From Patescibacteria group bacterium (lineage in GTDB: Bacteria > Patescibacteriota > Patescibacteriia > Buchananbacterales > UBA6539): 64,000 bases of DNA. A program made the position numbers and the translations under genes. The stretch is from positions 374,467 to 438,466 of the forward strand of contig JBAZSB010000001.1 in the NCBI GenBank assembly GCA_041662625.1, written 5' to 3'. Shown here one piece after another: positions 20,559-43,173 of the stretch (its first letter is position 1; every line of letters begins with the position of its first letter). The notes beneath the pieces are model-generated. The model did not search any database, had not been told where the DNA came from, and saw only the letters and a program-made list of their open reading frames with translations.

Positions 20559-22652
20559 ATGGAGGAAAAAATCGGTCAACTTAAATATTTAGTGATAAGT
20601 GTCATACTTTGTCTGGTATTGATTTTTAATTTTCTCAATTGGAGCAACCAAATTATTGGCCTGGGTTTTGGCCTAATCTACCTTTTATTTTATAGTTTTA
20701 TTTTTGGCTCAATCTTCATCAACAAAAAGGGCTGGCAAATTATTTTTGGCCTGCTTTTTTTATTCGCCCTGATTGCCGTTTTGGGCGCCGTAGCAATTTA
20801 TTTTTATGAACTCAATGATTATTTATTTATTCTTTTAATCCTTTTAATTCCCCTGATCTTAGTTACTCCCTATTATTTGGTCCAACCCAAAGAAAAATTT
20901 TCTTTGAAAAAAACCATCAAAAAATACTTGGATAAATTTGACCAGCGGCGGGAGCCAAAAACTAATTTTATTTTAGTGATTGCCTACCTGGCTTTGATCT
21001 CTTTGGCTTTTGCTTTTTTAATTAAAGGCCAGACCACCGAGTCAATTCAGGCACCCTGGCAAGTGGTTTCTTCCAAATTCCTGCCGGTTTATTTTCTATC
21101 CAGCTTTGTTCTTTTAACTTACCTTTTTCGTTCCCGCCGGACCAAGCTGCCTTTGATTTTATTAGTTATTCACACATTTTTGAGCAGCACGGTGGCTTTG
21201 CTGGTCTATAAAATTGGCTACGGTTTTGATCCTTTTATTCATCAGGCTACCGAAAGGATTATTGCCCAAACCGGAACCATCTGGCCTAAACCTCTTTATT
21301 ATCTTGGCCAATATGCCATAGTAGTCTTTTTTCATAAATTAACCACTTTAGACATTGCTTTAATTGATCGGATCTTAGTGCCGAGTCTTTTTTCTTTATT
21401 CCTGCCAACGATTATTTTTTATACCTTCAGCCACTGGGTGGAAAAAAAGTTTGCCTTAATCTTGGCCTTGGCGGTTTTGGTTATTCCCTACTCCGGTTTT
21501 ATTATGACCGCCCCCCAAAATTTAGCCAATCTGATTTTCATTCTCACTATTATTTTGTCGCTGCTTTATTACAAAAACCAAATCAGCCCCATCATTTTAT
21601 ACCTTCTGACCTTAGCTACCATTGCCATTCATCCCATGGCTGGCATTCCCCTATTGATTGCCGTATTTTTGCTGAATTTATTCAAATTCCTTTACACCAG
21701 CTACATTAAATATTTAAGTCTTTACTTTTTTTCCGCCCTGGTCTTTGTCATCTTTTTGCCTTTGGCTTTTATCAGCAATGGTTCCACCCTGAATCTAAAA
21801 CCGGTTTTCAAGCTTTCTGATTTTAAATGGTTTGGCTGGATTGATAAATTTGATTTGCCGCTAAATTTGGTTTATTTGGTCAATGCAAATAAAATAATTC
21901 TTGCCAGCCTAATTATTATAATCGGTCTAGTTTATCTTGCTAAAAATAAACTGCTAAAAAACAACGCCGGCTACCTGATGGCAGCTTTGATTATCGTTGT
22001 AGATTTTGTCATTACCAAATACTTTCTGGCCTTCCCCGACCTCCAAGATTATGACAAAAATTTCTTTGTCGCCCGGCTAGCAATTATTGCTTTCTATATA
22101 TTGCTGCCTTTCTTTCTGCTTGGCCTTTATTTCATTAGCAAAAAATTATATCAGCATGATTTTTACACCCGCCTGTTGCTTATTTTAGTTTTAGCCGGCA
22201 GCCTAACCATTTCTTTGTATCTTTCTTATCCCCGCCTAAATCAATATGAACCAGCCAAATTCTTTAGTGTTTCGGCTTCTGATATCAAAGCTGTTGATTT
22301 CATCGAAAAAAGCGCCGCACCAAACCATCTGGTTTTGGCTAATCAGATGATTGGGGTAACGGCAATCAAAGAATTTGGATTTAAAAAATATTATAATAAT
22401 CAATTTTATTATTCCATGCCCATGGGTAGTCCGCGCACTTTTTATGAATACTACTTGGAAATGATTTACCAAGGTGCCAAAAGAGAAACTATGGAAAAAG
22501 CGATGAATGAAGCCGGGGTCACGGAAGCTTATTTTGTTTTGAATCAATACTGGAATAATTCAACTAAAATTGCCAAGCAAGCAACAGAATCAGCCGATAA
22601 AATTTACGATATTGATAATGGCAAAATTTATATCTTTAAATATGTAAAATAA
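20559..22652 (+). CDS. large polytopic membrane protein
   Basis: 697 aa with about 14 TM helices. TGcTAAAAT (-10) ends 6 nt before the ATG, so the mRNA is possibly leaderless. Confidence 0.5.
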   Translation: MEEKIGQLKYLVISVILCLVLIFNFLNWSNQIIGLGFGLIYLLFYSFIFGSIFINKKGWQIIFGLLFLFALIAVLGAVAIYFYELNDYLFILLILLIPLILVTPYYLVQPKEKFSLKKTIKKYLDKFDQRREPKTNFILVIAYLALISLAFAFLIKGQTTESIQAPWQVVSSKFLPVYFLSSFVLLTYLFRSRRTKLPLILLVIHTFLSSTVALLVYKIGYGFDPFIHQATERIIAQTGTIWPKPLYYLGQYAIVVFFHKLTTLDIALIDRILVPSLFSLFLPTIIFYTFSHWVEKKFALILALAVLVIPYSGFIMTAPQNLANLIFILTIILSLLYYKNQISPIILYLLTLATIAIHPMAGIPLLIAVFLLNLFKFLYTSYIKYLSLYFFSALVFVIFLPLAFISNGSTLNLKPVFKLSDFKWFGWIDKFDLPLNLVYLVNANKIILASLIIIIGLVYLAKNKLLKNNAGYLMAALIIVVDFVITKYFLAFPDLQDYDKNFFVARLAIIAFYILLPFFLLGLYFISKKLYQHDFYTRLLLILVLAGSLTISLYLSYPRLNQYEPAKFFSVSASDIKAVDFIEKSAAPNHLVLANQMIGVTAIKEFGFKKYYNNQFYYSMPMGSPRTFYEYYLEMIYQGAKRETMEKAMNEAGVTEAYFVLNQYWNNSTKIAKQATESADKIYDIDNGKIYIFKYVK

Positions 22653-22683
22653 AAGAGAATATTACACACTTTATTGTGTATTA

Positions 22684-22716
22684 CAAAAAAAGTATGATAT
22701 AAGCCATACTTTTTTT
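22684..22716 (+). terminator. bidirectional intrinsic terminator (A7-agtatg-loop-catact-T7)
   Basis: Perfect 12-13-bp inverted repeat aaaaaaagtatg / catacttttttt, 32 nt after the stop of ORF 20559..22652. Confidence 0.5.
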
Positions 22717-22755
22717 CATTTTGTCTTATTTTAGCTAAAAATATGCCTTTTACCC

Positions 22756-22783
22756 TTGACAAAGCCAAAAATAATCCTACAAT
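22756..22783 (+). promoter_or_regulatory. sigma70-type promoter TTGACA-N16-TACAAT
   Basis: ttgaca at 22756-22761 and tacaat at 22778-22783. GGGAGG Shine-Dalgarno at 22826-22831. Confidence 0.55.
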
Positions 22784-22843
22784 GAATATTCACTAGCCCC
22801 TTATCAAGGGCACTTTCGTAACAAAGGGAGGTACAAGAAAATC

Positions 22844-23200
22844 ATGGACATAAATGAGTTGCTGCAGGAAATCGGCGAGTCACAACCAGGGCTTGCTAAA
22901 AGATTCAGGCAAGTCTTTACGACGGTACAAGAAGGTCTCAAGGATAGGTGTCCAAATTCGCCAGAATTAGCCTGGGCCATCAGGGCCATTCTCCCTCGGG
23001 AAGAAGCGAAACCGGGCCAAAGTGAAAAAGATCGACCGCTAGTCAAAGGCCAAAACCTTTGGGCTTTGCTAGTCGAAATCTATCCCAGCCACGCCACCAA
23101 CTCGCCTGAACTCGATATCAGCGCCCTACTCAACCGGTGGCTACCAATGATTGGCGCCTTGATCCACATCAATCGAAAGCGATCAAAGCCAATCTGCTGA
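22844..23200 (+). CDS. hypothetical 118-aa protein (island ORF A), GC-rich, no recognisable family
   Basis: ORF with Shine-Dalgarno, own promoter and own terminator. Composition (about 55-60% GC) contrasts with the host (about 30%). Confidence 0.5.
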   Translation: MDINELLQEIGESQPGLAKRFRQVFTTVQEGLKDRCPNSPELAWAIRAILPREEAKPGQSEKDRPLVKGQNLWALLVEIYPSHATNSPELDISALLNRWLPMIGALIHINRKRSKPIC

Positions 23201-23217
23201 TAATGCTTCTAGTGATT

Positions 23218-23251
23218 CCACCAAGACATTGATCTTGGTGGCTCTTTTTTA
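23218..23251 (+). terminator. intrinsic terminator ccaccaaga-cattga-tcttggtgg + CTCTTTTTT
   Basis: 9-bp GC-rich stem plus U-tract 18 nt after the ORF A stop. Confidence 0.7.
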
Positions 23252-23282
23252 TTCTGGTTTGAATTCTGGTTCTATCTTTAAG

Positions 23283-23311
23283 TTGACAATTTCCTATAAT
23301 TAAGCTATAAT
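23283..23311 (+). promoter_or_regulatory. perfect-consensus sigma70 promoter TTGACA-N17-TATAAT
   Basis: ttgaca at 23283-23288, 17-nt spacer, tataat at 23306-23311. Confidence 0.65.
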
Positions 23312-23317
23312 AAAAAA

Positions 23318-23354
23318 TCAAGACCCATCGTCTTGACCCAGCAATGATTTGCTG
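23318..23354 (+). promoter_or_regulatory. two operator-like palindromes at/after the predicted TSS: tcaagac-ccatc-gtcttga and cagcaa-tgat-ttgctg
   Basis: Inverted repeats at 23318-23336 and 23339-23354, between the -10 and the Shine-Dalgarno. Confidence 0.5.
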
Positions 23355-23396
23355 GTAGTTCCAAACCCGGCAAGCAACAAAGCGAAGGAGGTTCCA

Positions 23397-23570
23397 ATGC
23401 AAGGTTGGTATTTGGTAGTTGATGTAACACCGGAGCAACTTGAGGCGATGCGAGGCAAACTCGAACCGGTTATTCGGGCCGCGCTCGAAGAACTCCACCT
23501 CACGCCGCGCGTGGATGACACGAATGCAGCGGGTAAACCCGGACTCAACATCAACTTCGTCACCGGCTGA
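23397..23570 (+). CDS. hypothetical 57-aa protein (island ORF B)
   Basis: AAGGAGG Shine-Dalgarno at 23385-23391, 6 nt before ATG 23397. The ORF-track start at 23349 lacks a Shine-Dalgarno. Confidence 0.5.
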   Translation: MQGWYLVVDVTPEQLEAMRGKLEPVIRAALEELHLTPRVDDTNAAGKPGLNINFVTG

Positions 23571-23598
23571 TTCGTCATCGGCTAAAAGGAGGCACCCT

Positions 23599-23940
23599 AT
23601 GCAAAAGCTAAAGCGCACATTCGACGGATTAGCGGCAGGTTGCCCCTGGCTACCCAGTCTCCTCCATGACCTGCCAGGAGCCTTTACCCGGGAAAGCGAA
23701 GAAATCCTCTGCGACGGAATTGTTGCTCTGACCAGCGAAGACCCCCAAGACCATTTGGTCGGGGATGATCTCTGGAATGAGTTACATCGACAGTTCCCCG
23801 CCGGCGACGACATCAATTTCCTCGGCCTGGTAGGCGCACTGGAAGAAAAACTCAGCTACATCAAGGCTATGGCAGCCAGATGTGCTGATGCGGCTGCCGA
23901 TGCAGAACCTGAGGAGACTACCGTCGTTCTCGTCGGCTGA
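23599..23940 (+). CDS. hypothetical acidic 113-aa protein (island ORF C)
   Basis: AAAGGAGG at 23583-23591 precedes ATG 23599. It is 28 nt downstream of ORF B (bicistronic). D/E-rich. The ORF-track 166-aa version from 23440 overlaps ORF B out of frame and lacks a Shine-Dalgarno. Confidence 0.5.
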   Translation: MQKLKRTFDGLAAGCPWLPSLLHDLPGAFTRESEEILCDGIVALTSEDPQDHLVGDDLWNELHRQFPAGDDINFLGLVGALEEKLSYIKAMAARCADAAADAEPEETTVVLVG

Positions 23941-23979
23941 GACAGCCCCCTGCCCTCCCTTGGCACTACTGCCTAAGGG

Positions 23980-24014
23980 GACGACCATGCACTCGCGTGG
24001 TCGTCATTTTCTTT
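23980..24014 (+). terminator. intrinsic terminator gacgacca-tgcactcgcg-tggtcgtc + ATTTTCTTT
   Basis: 8-bp stem plus T-rich tail 40 nt after the ORF C stop. It abuts the stop codon of the convergent host gene at 24013. Confidence 0.65.
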
Positions 24015-24597
24015 AGCAACATTTTTTCTGAAAAGCCAAAGCTAACTGGCCGGCTTCGGTCATATCCTTACCCAAAGCAATAAAACCGTGATTTTTCAAA
24101 ACTAAAAAATTATTATTTTCTAAAATAGACAAAGCTTGTCTGACTAATTCGAGGCTGCCATAAGGGGCTTCTTTTTTGGTTTGCGGGATATTTAATTTTT
24201 TCGCCTGGGCTAAAATTTGCTGACAGTGGCCATGAAAGATGGCATTAACTTCCACTCGCTTCTGATAAAGGGCAAAATGAAGCATCGTTTCCGAAGATGG
24301 CTCCATTACCCCTTCAGCTTGAATAATTTTTCTTTCAAAATCACAATTAAAGATTTTGACAAAAGATTGATTAGTTAAATCTTCTTTGGCTTTTAGGCCT
24401 GCGCCGGTAATAATAAAAATGTTTTCTCCTTCTTTTAGGCGAAAACTGAGATTCCCGGCTGAGCAACCATCGTAAACCGGCGCCAAATTAGACTGGTGAA
24501 AATCCTGGCACCATTTGATTAGTTCAATAATTCTTGGATCTTGGGGCGCTTGCTTTTTTATAAATTCGGTTTTAAATTTTACACCGGGATACACCAT
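24013..24597 (-). CDS. class II aldolase/adducin family protein (MtnB-like dehydratase/aldolase)
   Basis: 194 aa with HGH-type metal-binding motifs (AIFHGHC). Adjacent to an e2B2-family isomerase. Confidence 0.6.
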   Translation of the reverse strand: MVYPGVKFKTEFIKKQAPQDPRIIELIKWCQDFHQSNLAPVYDGCSAGNLSFRLKEGENIFIITGAGLKAKEDLTNQSFVKIFNCDFERKIIQAEGVMEPSSETMLHFALYQKRVEVNAIFHGHCQQILAQAKKLNIPQTKKEAPYGSLELVRQALSILENNNFLVLKNHGFIALGKDMTEAGQLALAFQKKCC

Positions 24598-24630
24598 AGA
24601 AATTAGGTTGTAGGTAGTAGGTTGTAGCAG

Positions 24631-25680
24631 TTAGAATAATTTGCTGATTGCTTTTTCATTCGCTTTGATTATTCCTTTCTCGGTAATGATACCAGTGATA
24701 TATTTTGCCGGGGTAACATCAAAAGCCGGATTAATTGCCTCTGACCCCGGTGAACAAACTAAAATTCTTTCAATTTTTCCGGCCGAGTTTGGTCCGGTCT
24801 GGTATAAAACTTCGTCTTCACTGCGTTGTTCAATGGGAATTTCTGTCCCACTTGGGCAATTCCGATCAATCGTTGAAGTTGGCGCGGCAACATAAAATGG
24901 CACGTCATAAACTTTAGCTACAATCGCTTTTTCCAAAGTCCCGATTTTATTGGCCACGTCGCCATTTCGGGCAATCCGGTCAGCACCAACAATCATTAAG
25001 TCCACTTTATGCTGGCTCATCAGATAAGCCCCGGCATTATCCGGAATAATCTTATGAGGCACGCCTTCATTTTTTAATTCCCAGGCTGTCAATCGTGCCC
25101 CCTGGCTGCGCGGCCGGGTTTCGTCAGTGTAGACAAAGATTTTTTTGCCTGCCCGGTGAGCCGTGTAAATTGGTGCCAAAGCACTGCCCCAGTCCACAAA
25201 GGCCAGCCAGCCGGCATTACAATGGGTTTCAATCTGAAAGCCGTCTTTAATTAATTCATTGCCATACTCCCCTATTTTTCTGCCATTTTCAGCATTTTCT
25301 AAAGCCAGCCTTTGCGCTTCATTCAAAGCCGCTTCAGTCGGCTGAGCGGAATTTTTTCCGGCTTGGTAAACCATTTTAGTCGCATAAAACAAATCATGAG
25401 CCGTGGGCCGGGTGGCTTCAATATCCGCTTTTGCTTTTTCTATAAATTGCCAAAAATTATCAGCTGGTGCTTCCAGAAATGCTTGAGCCAAGGCATAGCC
25501 AGCGGTTGCGCCGATGGCTCCGGCTCCCCTGACAATCATAGTATTAATCGCCTGACAACTTGCCAAATAATTTTTGGCTTCAAAAATCTTGAATTCAAAA
25601 GGTAATAAATTTTGCTCAATCAAAAAAACGGATGAACCCGCCATCCAGACTGTTTGATAATCTTTGCCTGCTACCTTCAT
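24631..25680 (-). CDS. mtnA: eIF-2B alpha/beta/delta-like isomerase (methylthioribose-1-phosphate or ribose-1,5-bisphosphate isomerase)
   Basis: RGAGAIGATAGYALAQA and CNAGWLAFVDWGSALAPIYTA motifs of the e2B2/MtnA family. Confidence 0.7.
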   Translation of the reverse strand: MKVAGKDYQTVWMAGSSVFLIEQNLLPFEFKIFEAKNYLASCQAINTMIVRGAGAIGATAGYALAQAFLEAPADNFWQFIEKAKADIEATRPTAHDLFYATKMVYQAGKNSAQPTEAALNEAQRLALENAENGRKIGEYGNELIKDGFQIETHCNAGWLAFVDWGSALAPIYTAHRAGKKIFVYTDETRPRSQGARLTAWELKNEGVPHKIIPDNAGAYLMSQHKVDLMIVGADRIARNGDVANKIGTLEKAIVAKVYDVPFYVAAPTSTIDRNCPSGTEIPIEQRSEDEVLYQTGPNSAGKIERILVCSPGSEAINPAFDVTPAKYITGIITEKGIIKANEKAISKLF

Positions 25681-25682
25681 AG

Positions 25683-26852
25683 CTATAATAATTTAATCAG
25701 CTGCTTTAAATAGTTACTGACCGAAAAATTCCGAACTGAAACAAAACAATTCTTTTTCAGCTCTTCAATTTTTTCCGGATGATTCAAAAAATATTCTAAA
25801 ACCTCAATCAAATTTTTTTCATTACCCGGGGCAAAAGTAAAACCGTTGTAATCATCTTTGACAATTTCCGAAACACCACCGATATCAGCAGCAATCACCG
25901 GAACGTTGGCCACCAAACTTTCATCAATCACTTTGGGTGAATTTTCATAACAAAGTGAAGGCACAATCGTCAAATCAGCCTGGCGATAATAATCCGCTAA
26001 TTTGTCCTGCTCAACGCGGCCAATCAACTGAAAACGATTATCATCTTGGGCTAATCTTTTCGCTTCTTCCATCACTCCCCCGCCACCAACAACAGTCAGC
26101 TGCCAATTTTGCGGTTTTACTTTTTTCAAAGCCTCAATCAAAAGTAAAACACCTTTGAATCTTTCCAGCTGCCCGACAAACAATAAATTAATTTTTCGAT
26201 TTCTGATATCACCCAGTTCAATCTTTTCAACTTTTTTAAATTCCAAAGGATTAGGCATAATTAATTTTTTTGATTCATAGAAAAACCCCCGGGCCTGATA
26301 ATAACCCAGCAACCAGCGCGAGGGCGAAATTACCACATCAGGATTACTAAAAAGTCGCTTAACCGTTTTTTCATAAACTTTATCCAAAACCAAAAAAGGT
26401 TTTTCCGCTCCAAAAATTATCAAACCTGACGGCCGGGAAAGCTGGACATCATGAACCGTATGAAAATGGCGGATGCCGACTTTACGAATCGCTTTGGGAA
26501 TTAAATAACCCACACCTTTTAAATTATGAGTCATAACCACAGCGGGTTTTTCCTGCTCCAAAATCTTTTTCACCTGAGAATAACTGCTCAGATTAAAAAC
26601 ATCGATTGGATGCCACAACAAGCGCAACCAAACCGGCCGTTTATCAATATCCAAAAAAGAAAAAACATTTTTAGGCTTGATCCGGTAAATCGTCAATTTA
26701 CCCTCTTTGGTCACTGCCTTTTGCCGGCCTAAAGTAATCAAAACTACCTCATGGCCCAAACTCAAAAGGCCGCGGACAATGATTTCCACTACCACTTCCG
26801 CCCCACCCCGCTTATAGGGCTTGTATAGGCTATGAATTAGGCAAATCTTCAT
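25683..26852 (-). CDS. glycosyltransferase family 4 (GT-B)
   Basis: C-terminal GT1/GT4 signature (FVGQLERFKG...E...P). 389 aa. Confidence 0.8.
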   Translation of the reverse strand: MKICLIHSLYKPYKRGGAEVVVEIIVRGLLSLGHEVVLITLGRQKAVTKEGKLTIYRIKPKNVFSFLDIDKRPVWLRLLWHPIDVFNLSSYSQVKKILEQEKPAVVMTHNLKGVGYLIPKAIRKVGIRHFHTVHDVQLSRPSGLIIFGAEKPFLVLDKVYEKTVKRLFSNPDVVISPSRWLLGYYQARGFFYESKKLIMPNPLEFKKVEKIELGDIRNRKINLLFVGQLERFKGVLLLIEALKKVKPQNWQLTVVGGGGVMEEAKRLAQDDNRFQLIGRVEQDKLADYYRQADLTIVPSLCYENSPKVIDESLVANVPVIAADIGGVSEIVKDDYNGFTFAPGNEKNLIEVLEYFLNHPEKIEELKKNCFVSVRNFSVSNYLKQLIKLL

Positions 26853-27486: not shown

Positions 27487-27768
27487 TTAGGAGTTGTGTG
27501 GATCATGCCGCAGGGCATTATCTAGTGCAAGCCGGCTTTCCGTCAAAGGTCCACCCATGCGGGCAACTTCCTGTCTGATTTCGTTAACCAGTTCTTCGGG
27601 TAACCCTTGCACCGTTCGCATAATGTCGTAGAGGGCCTCTGGTGTTGCTCCCTCATAAGAGCATAACCTGCGAACAGTTTCGGCTTGTTTGGCAACGAGC
27701 GCGTGCCGAAATATCAAGCTGTGCTCAGCTAGTTTTCGGCCAAGTGCCTTCAATACTCTTCTAAACAT
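27487..27768 (-). CDS. hypothetical 93-aa protein, GC-rich (about 53%), inside the IR-bounded segment
   Basis: AAAGGAGA Shine-Dalgarno 5 nt before the ATG (minus strand). A stem-loop (7-bp stem ccctggg / cccaggg style, large loop) plus T-rich tail follows the stop. Confidence 0.45.
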   Translation of the reverse strand: MFRRVLKALGRKLAEHSLIFRHALVAKQAETVRRLCSYEGATPEALYDIMRTVQGLPEELVNEIRQEVARMGGPLTESRLALDNALRHDPHNS

Positions 27769-27841
27769 CGTCGTCTCCTTTACCGTAGATTCATTTTTTG
27801 CCTTACTTGACCATAACTAGCTACAACTATCGTGAAATTAT

Positions 27842-33337: not shown

Positions 33338-33715
33338 ATGACTGAAGTAAATCAAATCTACAGATGTAATATCTGCGGCAATATTGTCCAGGTCTTACAT
33401 GATGGCGTCGGACAATTGGTCTGTTGCGGTCAACCGATGGAATTGCTCAAAGAAAACACCGTTGACGCCAGCCGGGAAAAGCACGTGCCAGTCATTGAAA
33501 AAACCGCCAATGGCTATAAGGTCAAAGTCGGCTCAGTCCCCCATCCGATGGAAGAAAAGCATTATATTGAGTGGATTCAGCTAATTGTCGGCAATATGGC
33601 CTATCACCGCTATCTCAAGCCTGGCGACGCGCCTGAGGCCGAATTCTGTGTCCCCAAGGCCGGCGAGGTCATTGCTCGGGAATACTGCAACTTGCACGGG
33701 CTTTGGAAGTCGTAA
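33338..33715 (+). CDS. desulfoferrodoxin (2Fe superoxide reductase)
   Basis: N-terminal desulforedoxin CNICGN...CCG. SOR centre EKHVPVIE...H...C. Confidence 0.8.
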
Positions 33716-43144: not shown

Positions 43145-43173
43145 TTGACTAAACTCGCCAGATATCGTATAAT
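43145..43173 (+). promoter_or_regulatory. sigma70 promoter TTGACT-N17-TATAAT for the plus-strand glycan operon
   Basis: ttgact at 43145-43150, tataat at 43168-43173, 24 nt upstream of ORF start 43197. Confidence 0.55.

What the first reader, a model, noticed from the sequence alone, without database searches (positions are those of the whole stretch)
22717..24014. Compositionally foreign 1.3-kb dual-transcription-unit cassette inserted between convergent host genes
Between the terminator of the host membrane-protein gene (stop 22652) and the stop of the convergent MtnB-like gene (24013) lies a segment whose GC content is visibly about twice that of the flanks. One 60-nt line inside is about 63% GC; a typical host line is about 28%. 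It is fully self-contained: promoter TTGACA-N16-TACAAT, then GGGAGG Shine-Dalgarno, then ORF A (118 aa), then a GC-stem terminator. A perfect-consensus promoter with two palindromes follows, then AAGGAGG, ORF B (57 aa), AAAGGAGG, ORF C (113 aa, strongly acidic), and a second terminator. Host genes nearby use weak or no Shine-Dalgarno sites and AT-rich terminators. None of the three proteins matches a family I recognise. This is the strongest candidate for a horizontally acquired, undescribed module.
Basis: seen in the sequence. Interest (0 to 1): 0.9.

Follow-up and report, generated by a model that had tools for sequence, protein, structure and literature searches.

The report
Swappable small-gene units in a CPR bacterium
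The GC-rich 1.3-kb segment is real, but it is not a one-off foreign insert: it holds three small genes built for strong expression, two of them from an undescribed protein family that sits at this same spot in about a dozen related candidate-phyla-radiation (CPR) bacteria, and its function is still unknown.

Summary
Observation confirmed. Window 22717-24014 is 49.8% GC against 35.7 +/- 3.1% elsewhere (z 4.6; tetranucleotide z 7.2). It holds the only two TTGACA-N16-18-TAnAAT promoters in the 64 kb. ORFs B and C, and a separate 93-aa ORF at 27768, are the only gene starts preceded by a GGAGG/AGGAG motif at canonical 4-9-nt spacing; ORF A's GGGAGG lies 12 nt upstream.

Interpretation only partly supported. 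The window is from a Patescibacteria MAG close to Candidatus Buchananbacteria. ORF C belongs to a small, acidic, all-helical family. ORF A is a distant basic paralog (hhalign 90%, E 1.6e-6). In 13 related lineages a member sits directly after the same 697-aa membrane-protein gene. ORF B has one homolog, in the same place.

In the closest relatives the promoter, a two-hairpin 5' leader with compensatory changes, and the terminator stem are conserved. The coding sequence is far more diverged than its flanks, also at synonymous sites (56% against 14% differing codons at identical residues, p 6e-7). This points to allele replacement within the clade, not import from a distant donor.

There are no homologs outside the clade among 1.84 billion representatives, and no Pfam, NCBIfam, PHROG, PADLOC, PDB or fold match. 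Function is unknown. My best guess is an abundant binding or inhibitor protein.

The parts
22756..22783 (+). P1 promoter of the ORF A unit (TTGACA-16-TACAAT, 11/12)
   Evidence: The surrounding 'ACCCTTGACAAAG' is conserved upstream of the ORF A ortholog in L019.
22826..22831 (+). Shine-Dalgarno GGGAGG of ORF A, 12 nt before the ATG
22844..23200 (+). ORF A, 118 aa, mildly basic (pI 8.7) with a basic C-terminal tail ending in Cys. It is a distant paralog of ORF C. Its ortholog is L019 7306-7665.
   Evidence: A relatives-only HMM gives E 1.9e-4. hhalign of A-type against C-type gives 90% probability, E 1.6e-6, over 86 columns. The L019 ortholog is shown. GC1 > GC3 > GC2 phasing.
23218..23250 (+). 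Intrinsic terminator of the ORF A unit. Its stem carries a second copy of the CAAGAC-N-RTCTTG palindrome.
23283..23311 (+). P2 promoter (TTGACA-17-TATAAT, 12/12), conserved in L098, L101, L104, L010 and L108
23318..23355 (+). 5' leader with two stem-loops (23318-23336 and 23338-23355). It begins at the inferred transcription start.
   Evidence: The MFE fold forms both hairpins. 95% of cells pair, 3 pairs carry compensatory changes, U-G intermediates occur, and slid controls give 0.
23385..23391 (+). Shine-Dalgarno AAGGAGG of ORF B
23397..23570 (+). ORF B, 57 aa. Its only homolog is L010 1340-1516 (61% identity), in the same position.
   Evidence: pN/pS is 0.44.
23585..23592 (+). Shine-Dalgarno AAAGGAGG of ORF C
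23599..23940 (+). ORF C, 113 aa, acidic (pI 4.3), with five predicted helices. It belongs to the G-x-x-L-W-x-x-L-x-x-x-[FY]-P-x-G family.
23956..24015 (+). 3' UTR hairpin plus intrinsic terminator (stem GACGACC...GGTCGTC at 23980-24005, then a T-run). The stem travels with the unit in relatives and abuts the aldolase stop codon.
20559..22652 (+). 697-aa polytopic membrane-protein gene. It is the conserved upstream anchor of the slot.

Best explanation
What it is. The segment holds two autonomous, high-expression small-gene units. They are long-term residents of a variable 'slot' directly downstream of a 697-aa membrane-protein gene in Buchananbacteria-like Patescibacteria.
- Unit 1 is P1, an SD site, ORF A and a terminator.
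- Unit 2 is P2, a two-hairpin 5' leader, an SD site, ORF B, an SD site, ORF C and a terminator.
- ORF A (basic) and ORF C (acidic) are diverged paralogs of one clade-restricted, all-helical protein family of about 90-120 aa. ORF B is an optional extra gene.

How it works (inferred).
- A consensus sigma-70 promoter fires strongly.
- The hairpins at the very 5' end, and the strong ribosome binding site, protect the mRNA from 5'-end-dependent decay.
- The GC-rich intrinsic terminator closes the unit, so the small proteins are made abundantly and independently of their neighbours.

How it evolves. The expression signals stay recognisable. The coding part is replaced by deeply diverged alleles through recombination among members of the clade. 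That replacement, rather than import from a distant donor, accounts for the discordant history. About half of the GC excess comes from amino-acid composition. The other half is a GC3 excess that recurs in most lineages.

Function. This is not established. My working guess is an abundant cytoplasmic binding or inhibitor protein. The acidic C form may be partnered by the basic A form. It would act in envelope biology or a conflict process under frequency-dependent selection.
For: Shown:
- Composition, promoters, SD sites and terminators.
- Coding status: GC1 > GC3 > GC2 in the annotated frames only; dN/dS of 0.15-0.5 among alleles; pN/pS of 0.44 for B.
- Family membership and paralogy.
- Same position in 13 lineages, whatever gene follows: GT, aldolase, asd or others.
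- Conserved P2, leader and terminator, with compensatory and wobble changes.
- Near-consensus promoter plus SD-like sequence upstream of nearly every small gene in the slot.
- Allele replacement. Between the window and L108 the aldolase is 91% identical in nucleotides with dS 0.25. The adjacent C coding sequence is 54% identical with pS 0.78. At identical residues, 56% of codons differ in C against 14% in the aldolase (p 5.8e-7).
- B and C shuffle independently: B is 61% identical and C only 25% between the window and L010.
- GC3 of family genes exceeds that of flanks in 9 of 11 lineages. Host codon usage would predict GC of 0.46-0.49, against 0.51-0.56 observed.
- Clade restriction: about 6 clusters among 1.84 billion representatives.

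From the literature: 5' stem-loops and strong ribosome binding sites act as mRNA stabilisers (review PMC3997798).
Against: - No transcription, TSS or protein data exist. The TSS at about 23317-23318 is inferred from the -10 box.
- The leader alignment has only 6 sequences, and 13 of 500 shuffles reach the observed covariation. A palindromic operator could give a similar pattern; only the U-G pairs argue against that.
- Synonymous sites are saturated, so elevated local mutation cannot be formally excluded as an alternative to allele replacement.
- The flank available in L108 is only 399 nt.
- No GC-rich reservoir of alleles was found, so the persistent GC3 excess has no explanation.
- The functional guess rests only on size, charge, expression architecture and allele diversity. 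The AF2 model is of moderate confidence (pLDDT 75) and matches no fold.
Confidence: 0.6

Rival explanations
1. The segment is a recently acquired foreign module, such as a phage or plasmid 'moron', from a distant donor of about 55% GC, inserted between convergent host genes in this genome.
For: - GC z 4.6 and tetranucleotide z 7.2.
- GC3 of 0.54-0.59 against 0.35-0.41 in the flanks.
- SD-led genes in a genome whose own genes lack SD sites.
- A promoter-gene-terminator anatomy that fits the published definition of a moron (PMC3594210).
- Synonymous divergence that disagrees with the flanks.
Against: - Homologous units occupy the same slot in 13 related lineages, with conserved promoter, leader and terminator.
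- The ORF A promoter region is orthologous to that of L019.
- No homolog exists outside the clade in 1.84 billion representatives.
- Phage genomes, plasmids and viral contigs gave nothing.
- There is no integrase, tRNA or flanking direct repeat.
- The promoters are of the host's own sigma-70 type; similar host promoters occur, for example at 43145.
Confidence: 0.12
2. Vertical inheritance with gene-intrinsic GC enrichment. The units are old residents. Their GC and GC3 excess and their fast divergence would come from selection for mRNA stability or translation of very highly expressed genes. Alternatively they would come from transcription-associated mutation or GC-biased gene conversion at a recombination hot spot. 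No allele exchange is needed.
For: - The GC3 excess recurs in 9 of 11 lineages regardless of genome GC.
- Half of the GC excess is explained by amino-acid composition.
- Every unit carries strong expression signals.
- Another GC3-rich gene in the window, desulfoferrodoxin (GC3 0.59), is a typical abundant protein.
Against: - A four-fold excess of synonymous differences over the adjacent gene in the closest pair is large for a mutation-rate effect.
- B and C show discordant divergence between the same two genomes.
- The L013/L023 member has fully host-like GC3, so GC-richness is not obligatory for the family.
Confidence: 0.2
3. The functional products are structured non-coding RNAs, in the manner of GC-rich islands in AT-rich genomes, and the ORFs are incidental.
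For: - High GC in an AT-rich genome.
- Whole-transcript folds are somewhat more stable than shuffled sequence (z -3.3 and -2.4).
- The leader hairpins are conserved.
Against: - No Rfam match, even at E <= 1.
- Amino-acid motifs and reading frames are conserved at 25-45% identity, with dN/dS below 1.
- Codon-phase GC appears only in the annotated frames.
- SD and ATG are conserved.
- Nucleotide identity inside the coding sequence is only about 50%.
Confidence: 0.03
4. ORF B and ORF C form a type II toxin-antitoxin or toxin-immunity pair. Alternatively, C is an orphan colicin-type immunity protein.
For: - Two small co-transcribed genes 28 nt apart.
- C is small, very acidic and helical, and is expressed from its own strong promoter.
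- Allelic diversity is high.
Against: - C occurs without B in 10 of 12 C-bearing lineages.
- Neither protein matches Pfam, NCBIfam, PADLOC or PHROG families.
- No toxin gene is adjacent.
- The fold search gives no immunity-protein match above noise; Tai4 appears at E 8.9.
Confidence: 0.05

Closest known systems
Phage 'morons' (autonomous promoter-gene-terminator units; Hendrix/Juhala, reviewed in PMC3594210)
   Same: Each unit has its own sigma-70 promoter and factor-independent terminator. Its GC content differs from that of its neighbours. It lies between genes that are directly adjacent in some relatives (L020, L009). It is expressed independently of its surroundings.
   Different: The unit is not in a phage or prophage: the neighbours are glycan-synthesis and sugar-salvage (MtnA, aldolase) genes, and no phage homologs exist. 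It keeps a fixed chromosomal position across a clade. The same protein family recurs in the slot, rather than unrelated cargo.
Hypervariable chromosomal islets with allele replacement between conserved flanks (for example O-antigen or capsule loci, orphan immunity gene arrays)
   Same: The flanks are conserved and the content is variable: family member, Cys-rich protein, zinc-ribbon protein, nucleoside deoxyribosyltransferase-like gene, or nothing. Alleles are deeply diverged between close relatives.
   Different: The slot holds only one to three genes of about 60-150 aa. The recognisable conserved boundaries are expression signals (promoter, leader and terminator) rather than large flanking genes. 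No function links it to the surface glycan genes nearby.
5'-terminal stem-loop mRNA stabilisers (ompA, papA, aprE leaders; strong-RBS stabilisers such as hbs and gsiB; review PMC3997798)
   Same: The hairpin begins 0-2 nt from the inferred 5' end, and a strong SD site follows. The stems are kept by compensatory and wobble substitutions while the loops vary.
   Different: There are no sequence relatives among known leaders and no Rfam family. The host is an SD-poor Patescibacterium whose RNase complement I did not examine. Stabilisation is untested.
Colicin/pyocin-type immunity proteins (Im7/Im9-like)
   Same: About 90-110 aa, strongly acidic, helical bundle, own constitutive promoter, high allelic diversity.
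   Different: There is no sequence or fold similarity and no cognate toxin gene. A basic paralog exists, as do fusions to a four-Cys module.

Membership tests
Moron (phage-borne autonomous transcription unit) | Own promoter and own factor-independent terminator flanking the gene | tested here: met
   P1 and P2 match the consensus at 11/12 and 12/12. Each unit has a hairpin plus T-run terminator.
Moron (phage-borne autonomous transcription unit) | Nucleotide composition differs from the adjacent genes | tested here: met
   GC z 4.6, tetranucleotide z 7.2.
Moron (phage-borne autonomous transcription unit) | Resides in a phage or prophage genome | tested here: not met
   The neighbours are glycan-synthesis and sugar-salvage (MtnA, aldolase) genes. 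Phage genomes, viral contigs and PHROGs gave no hits.
Integrative genomic island or mobile element | Integrase or transposase, flanking direct repeats or att sites, frequent tRNA target | tested here: not met
   There is no recombinase ORF in 22.6-24.1 kb, no tRNA in the window, and no convincing flanking direct or inverted repeats.
Type II toxin-antitoxin pair (ORF B + ORF C) | Homology of either partner to a known toxin or antitoxin family | tested here: not met
   Pfam, NCBIfam, PADLOC and PHROGs gave nothing significant.
Type II toxin-antitoxin pair (ORF B + ORF C) | Obligate co-occurrence of the two genes | tested here: not met
   B accompanies C only in the window and in L010. C stands alone in L005, L007, L013, L021, L098, L101, L104 and L108.
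Described structured RNA family (Rfam) | Covariance-model match | tested here: not met
   No match at the gathering threshold in the window, and none at E <= 1 in 22600-24100.
5'-terminal stem-loop mRNA stabiliser | Stable hairpin at or within a few nt of the transcript 5' end, maintained by selection | tested here: inconclusive
   The hairpin starts 6-7 nt after the -10 box, so its position depends on an inferred TSS. 95% of cells pair, 3 pairs are compensatory, and U-G intermediates occur. The alignment has only 6 sequences.
5'-terminal stem-loop mRNA stabiliser | Longer mRNA half-life when the hairpin is present | not testable with these tools
   Needs decay measurements.
Any described protein family (Pfam, NCBIfam, PDB) for ORFs A, B and C | Significant sequence or fold match | tested here: not met
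New clade-restricted family (G-x-x-L-W-x-x-L-x-x-x-[FY]-P-x-G) defined here | ORF C and ORF A are recognised by a profile built without them | tested here: met
   ORF C scores 1.7e-12 and ORF A 1.9e-4. They are the top two of 448 six-frame segments, and the next best scores 0.64. hhalign of A-type against C-type gives 90% probability.

The most novel reading that the evidence does not exclude
A conserved 'expression chassis' for swappable small proteins in a CPR clade. A fixed chromosomal site would carry a consensus promoter, a 5' stabiliser leader, a canonical Shine-Dalgarno site (in a genome that otherwise does without one) and a dedicated terminator. Deeply diverged alleles of an acidic small protein would be exchanged into this site by recombination, together with optional partners: the basic paralog, ORF B and a four-Cys module. 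This would be a previously unrecognised conflict or host-interaction locus of episymbiotic Patescibacteria. Its members would be selectively translated through the SD/anti-SD route.
Probability: 0.25. Interest if true: 0.7.

Novelty: new variant of a known kind. Interest (0 to 1): 0.45.

Why it matters
Most Patescibacteria genes are uncharacterised, and very few leads point to genes that are both strongly expressed and rapidly exchanged. This locus offers three things.
- A compact, testable example: three tiny genes whose promoter, leader, SD sites and terminator are all defined.
- A natural experiment on translation initiation, because these are SD-led genes in an SD-poor genome. About half of Parcubacteria are reported to lack the anti-SD motif (PMC9297842).
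- A possible marker of strain-level conflict or host interaction in a lineage with no cultured members.

If the proteins turn out to be ordinary, the locus still gives strong, portable expression signals for future CPR genetics.

Tried and rejected
- Assembly chimera: rejected. Both junctions are identical in three independent assemblies.
- Strict orphan status: the word-indexed search found only self hits for A and C. This was overturned by tblastn and HMM searches on related loci, and by the full HMMER scan.
- Two hits in the representative search were set aside. P0125 is a tandem-repeat translation. P0128 is a STAND-like protein whose repeats only resemble the ELxRQFP motif.
- Empty-site search with the aldolase in genome contigs found nothing. 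It was replaced by searches anchored on the membrane protein.
The single-sequence AF2 model was useless (pLDDT 51).
- The afdb50 fold library was unavailable.
- Phage and plasmid blastn, phage tblastn, viral-contig protein and leader-motif scans, and PADLOC, PHROG, Pfam and NCBIfam searches were all negative.
- DGR or repeat-template idea: nothing beyond chance-length repeats (10-25 nt, 72-100% identity), apart from the two copies of the CAAGAC palindrome, was found within window 22500-24200.
- 'Foreign promoter type': rejected. Host operons also use sigma-70-like promoters.
- Testing whether high expression explains GC3 could not be completed, because the window contains no ribosomal protein genes.
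Full report
**1. The observation**

The window is an AT-rich genome segment (mean GC 0.357). The flagged stretch, 22717-24014, has GC 0.498. That is z = 4.6 against all other 1298-nt windows, and its tetranucleotide usage is z = 7.2 away from the window average. The 1-kb bin 23001-24000 is the GC maximum of all 64 bins.

The consensus scan finds P1 (TTGACA-16-TACAAT, 22756-22783) and P2 (TTGACA-17-TATAAT, 23283-23311). It also finds two hairpin plus T-run terminators, at 23218-23241 and 23980-24005. A regular-expression scan shows that P1 and P2 are the only TTGACA-N16-18-TAnAAT sites on either strand of the 64 kb.

ORFs A (22844-23200), B (23397-23570) and C (23599-23940) have the stated lengths. 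Each is preceded by GGGAGG, AAGGAGG or AAAGGAGG.

Only 3% of 64 crude gene calls have a 5/6 SD match. The only true gene starts preceded by GGAGG or AGGAG at 4-9 nt are ORF B, ORF C and one more small ORF at 27768(-).

The same DNA, with both junctions, is present in three independent assemblies (L001-L003). It is therefore not a chimera. 'Twice the GC' is true only locally; the whole segment is 1.4-fold richer.

**2. Are the ORFs genes?**

GC by codon position is GC1 > GC3 > GC2 in the annotated frames of A, B and C, as in the host genes. It is flat for the long antisense ORF. Homologs, described below, keep the frame at 25-45% identity with dN/dS of 0.15-0.5. ORF B has pN/pS of 0.44.

Rfam finds nothing, even at E <= 1. 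Whole-transcript folds are only moderately more stable than shuffles (z -3.3 and -2.4). I treat all three ORFs as protein-coding.

**3. Where it comes from**

Source names identify a Patescibacteria MAG on a 922-kb contig, with locus tags WC675_01945 to WC675_01955. The nearest named relatives, found through the upstream membrane protein, are Candidatus Buchananbacteria.

The word-indexed protein search returned only self hits for A and C, which looked like true orphans. I then fetched loci that encode relatives of the 697-aa membrane protein (63-73% identity; 58-66% in species representatives). Scanning them by tblastn and HMM changed the picture.
- In these genomes the membrane-protein gene is followed, after 5-1060 bp, by the convergent GT4 gene that lies at 25683-26852 in the window.
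- The short spacer very often encodes a small protein homologous to ORF C.
- Contexts of the closest aldolase homologs, and of hits from the full HMMER scan, add L098, L101, L104-L108 and L109/L110.

In all, 13 distinct lineages carry a family member directly after the membrane-protein gene. This holds whatever gene comes next: GT4, aldolase, asd or others.

An HMM built only from relatives recovers ORF C (1.7e-12) and ORF A (1.9e-4) as the two best of 448 six-frame segments of the window. The next hit scores 0.64. ORF A has a clear ortholog in the Buchananbacteria genome L019, including the promoter context 'ACCCTTGACAAAG'. A profile-profile comparison of the A type with the C type gives 90% probability, E 1.6e-6, over 86 columns.

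So A and C are diverged paralogs. C-type members are acidic (pI 4.0-4.6). A-type members are basic, with a polybasic tail ending in Cys. ORF B has a single homolog, 61% identical, in L010, again between the leader and a C-type gene.

The exhaustive scan of 1.84 billion representatives finds only about six true clusters, all of this kind. No member occurs next to the more distant (30-39%) membrane-protein homologs of Falkowbacteria and others.

**4. The slot is variable**

Other relatives carry different content in the same place:
- a four-Cys small protein (L016, L017), which is fused to the family domain in L109;
- zinc-ribbon proteins (L008, L012);
- a nucleoside deoxyribosyltransferase-like gene (L011);
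- a 415-aa cupin-like protein (L006);
- nothing (L009, L020, L004).

In the window's subclade an mtnA-like isomerase and a class II aldolase are additionally wedged between the unit and the GT4 gene.

**5. Expression signals are the conserved part**

I aligned the region from -35 to the start codon in the window, L098, L101, L108, L104 and L010. The alignment shows the same promoter (TTGACA-17-TATAAT or near) and the same two hairpins. The second hairpin is missing in L104.

On this alignment 95% of cells pair and three pairs carry compensatory double changes: T-A to C-G in hairpin 1, and G-C to A-T and C-G to T-A in hairpin 2. U-G intermediates occur on the sense strand. All slid controls give zero. 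The minimum-energy fold of the window leader forms exactly these hairpins.

Hairpin 1 starts 6-7 nt after the -10 box, at the inferred 5' end. This is the arrangement of classical 5' stem-loop stabilisers. Strong ribosome binding sites are also known stabilisers in RNase J organisms (review PMC3997798).

The terminator stem GACGACC...GGTCGTC is likewise shared. It is present in L010, which has no aldolase, so it belongs to the unit rather than to the aldolase.

The palindrome CAAGAC-N-RTCTTG occurs in the window only twice, against 0.05 expected: in hairpin 1 and in the ORF A terminator. An operator role is not excluded.

Nearly every small gene in the slot, across lineages, has its own 10-12/12 promoter and an SD-like tract. 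Host operons also use sigma-70-like promoters. The promoters are therefore of host type, only unusually close to consensus.

**6. History of the coding part**

Between the window and L108 the aldolase is 89% identical in protein and 91% in nucleotides, with dS 0.25. The adjacent C gene is 40% identical in protein and 54% in nucleotides, with pS 0.78.

Restricting the count to codons for identical residues removes alignment and selection effects. By that measure 56% of codons differ in C against 14% in the aldolase (Fisher p 5.8e-7). The values are 52% against 27% for L101 (p 0.003) and 58% against about 35% for L098 (p 0.03).

The alleles are therefore much older than the genomes' divergence, which indicates replacement by recombination within the clade. 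B and C are also discordant between the window and L010: 61% against 25% identity.

The donors are relatives carrying the same slot, not a foreign element. I found no recombinase, tRNA or flanking repeats, and no phage, plasmid or viral-contig relatives.

**7. Composition**

Family genes exceed their flanks in GC3 in 9 of 11 lineages, for example 0.57 against 0.35-0.41 in the window and 0.69 against 0.45-0.49 in L021. The L013/L023 member is host-like.

With host codon usage the three window proteins would still be 0.46-0.49 GC, so roughly half of the anomaly is amino-acid composition. The rest has no explanation. Candidates are circulation of alleles from GC-richer members of the clade, selection on highly expressed or structured mRNAs, and biased gene conversion at a recombination hot spot. 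I could not discriminate among these.

**8. Function**

What can be said:
- the products are small, cytoplasmic (no signal peptide or TM segment was noticed on reading the sequences; no predictor was run) and helical;
- C is very acidic and A is basic;
- they are set up for abundant, autonomous expression;
- they persist next to an envelope membrane protein through rearrangements;
- they show ancient allelic diversity.

I therefore favour, at low confidence, a stoichiometric binding or inhibitor role in a conflict or envelope-related process. A toxin-antitoxin pair is unlikely, because C usually occurs without B.

**9. SD sites in an SD-poor genome**

A published survey reports that the anti-SD motif is undetectable in about half of Parcubacteria (PMC9297842). 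The 16S rRNA of this genome is not in the window and I could not fetch it.

Purine-rich SD tracts are conserved across diverged leaders, which argues that they are functional. They may act for initiation or as ribosome-dependent mRNA stabilisers. This is the most interesting open thread.

**10. Verdict**

The anomaly is real. The segment is a pair of moron-like, strongly expressed small-gene units encoding an undescribed, clade-restricted protein family. They are long-term residents of a variable slot, with allele exchange inside the clade. The segment is not a unique foreign insert. Function is unknown.

I score it as a new variant of a known kind (autonomous gene cassettes in hypervariable islets), of moderate interest.

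Noticed in passing
window 27487-27768 (-), promoter about 27912-27884, SD AAAGGAG at about 27775-27781: A third GC-rich (0.51) small unit. It encodes a 93-aa ORF with its own TTGACA-17-TATTGT promoter, a canonical SD site and a downstream hairpin. No homolog turned up among the fetched loci (local phmmer) and Pfam and PADLOC gave no significant match; it was not searched against the public protein collections. It has the same architecture as the flagged cassette, and the region is the second-strongest tetranucleotide outlier.
   Followed up: partly
whole window (64 gene calls): Host genes essentially lack Shine-Dalgarno sequences: 3% have a 5/6 match. Only the small GC-rich ORFs carry them. 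A published survey says about half of Parcubacteria lack the anti-SD motif. The 16S rRNA is not in the window.
   Followed up: partly
window 24013-25680 (-): The mtnA-like isomerase (NCBIfam 394 bits) and the class II aldolase are themselves extra relative to most relatives, where the small-gene slot abuts the GT4 gene directly. They occur only in the subclade of the window, L098, L101 and L105-L108. The mtnA gene is also GC-elevated (0.45).
   Followed up: partly
L101 1116-1505 (read on the minus strand): In the closest sibling a hairpin-rich, GC-rich non-coding stretch of about 280 nt occupies the place of the ORF A unit. By eye it appears to contain two direct repeats of about 50 nt (GGGTCRCCGG...GAGGTTAAAACC); the repeat scan failed, so this is not confirmed. 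It may be a remnant or an RNA element.
   Followed up: no
L016 10177-10413, L017 10625-10834, L109 197-658: A four-Cys small-protein module (C...C-x3-5-C-x7-C-P) shares the slot. In L109 it is fused N-terminally to the family domain. This is a Rosetta-stone hint that the two modules work together, possibly through metal or Fe-S binding.
   Followed up: partly
window 23222-23237 and 23319-23335: The palindrome CAAGAC-N4-5-RTCTTG occurs only at these two sites in the 64 kb (expected 0.05). They are the ORF A terminator stem and leader hairpin 1, and they bracket P2 about 98 bp apart. Paired operators are a possible reading.
   Followed up: partly
window 33338-33715 (+): The desulfoferrodoxin gene has GC 0.49 and GC3 0.59, the highest GC3 of any host-type gene in the window. 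It lies next to a ferredoxin-thioredoxin reductase beta-chain gene. It is either another acquisition or a sign that abundant proteins are GC3-rich here.
   Followed up: no
window 21074-21123, 22274-22361, 25746-25752 compared with L001: The 14 SNPs that separate the window from assembly L001 are clustered in the membrane-protein and GT4 genes. None lie in the cassette, the aldolase or mtnA. The clustering suggests short recombination tracts in the flanking envelope genes.
   Followed up: no
P0128 (1101-aa protein from the representative search): A protein of about 1100 aa, read by eye as a STAND/NTPase-like protein (no domain search was run), whose C-terminal helical repeats (…IEELYRQFPASQEIA…) resemble the family motif ELxRQFPxG (E 2e-5, 5 stretches). 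This is probably convergence in a helical hairpin, but I did not examine it further.
   Followed up: no
L098 3096-3923: A tyrosine recombinase (Phage_integrase domain, 275 aa) lies immediately upstream of the GT4-mtnA-aldolase block in the sibling contig. I did not check whether it is XerC/D or marks a mobile segment.
   Followed up: no
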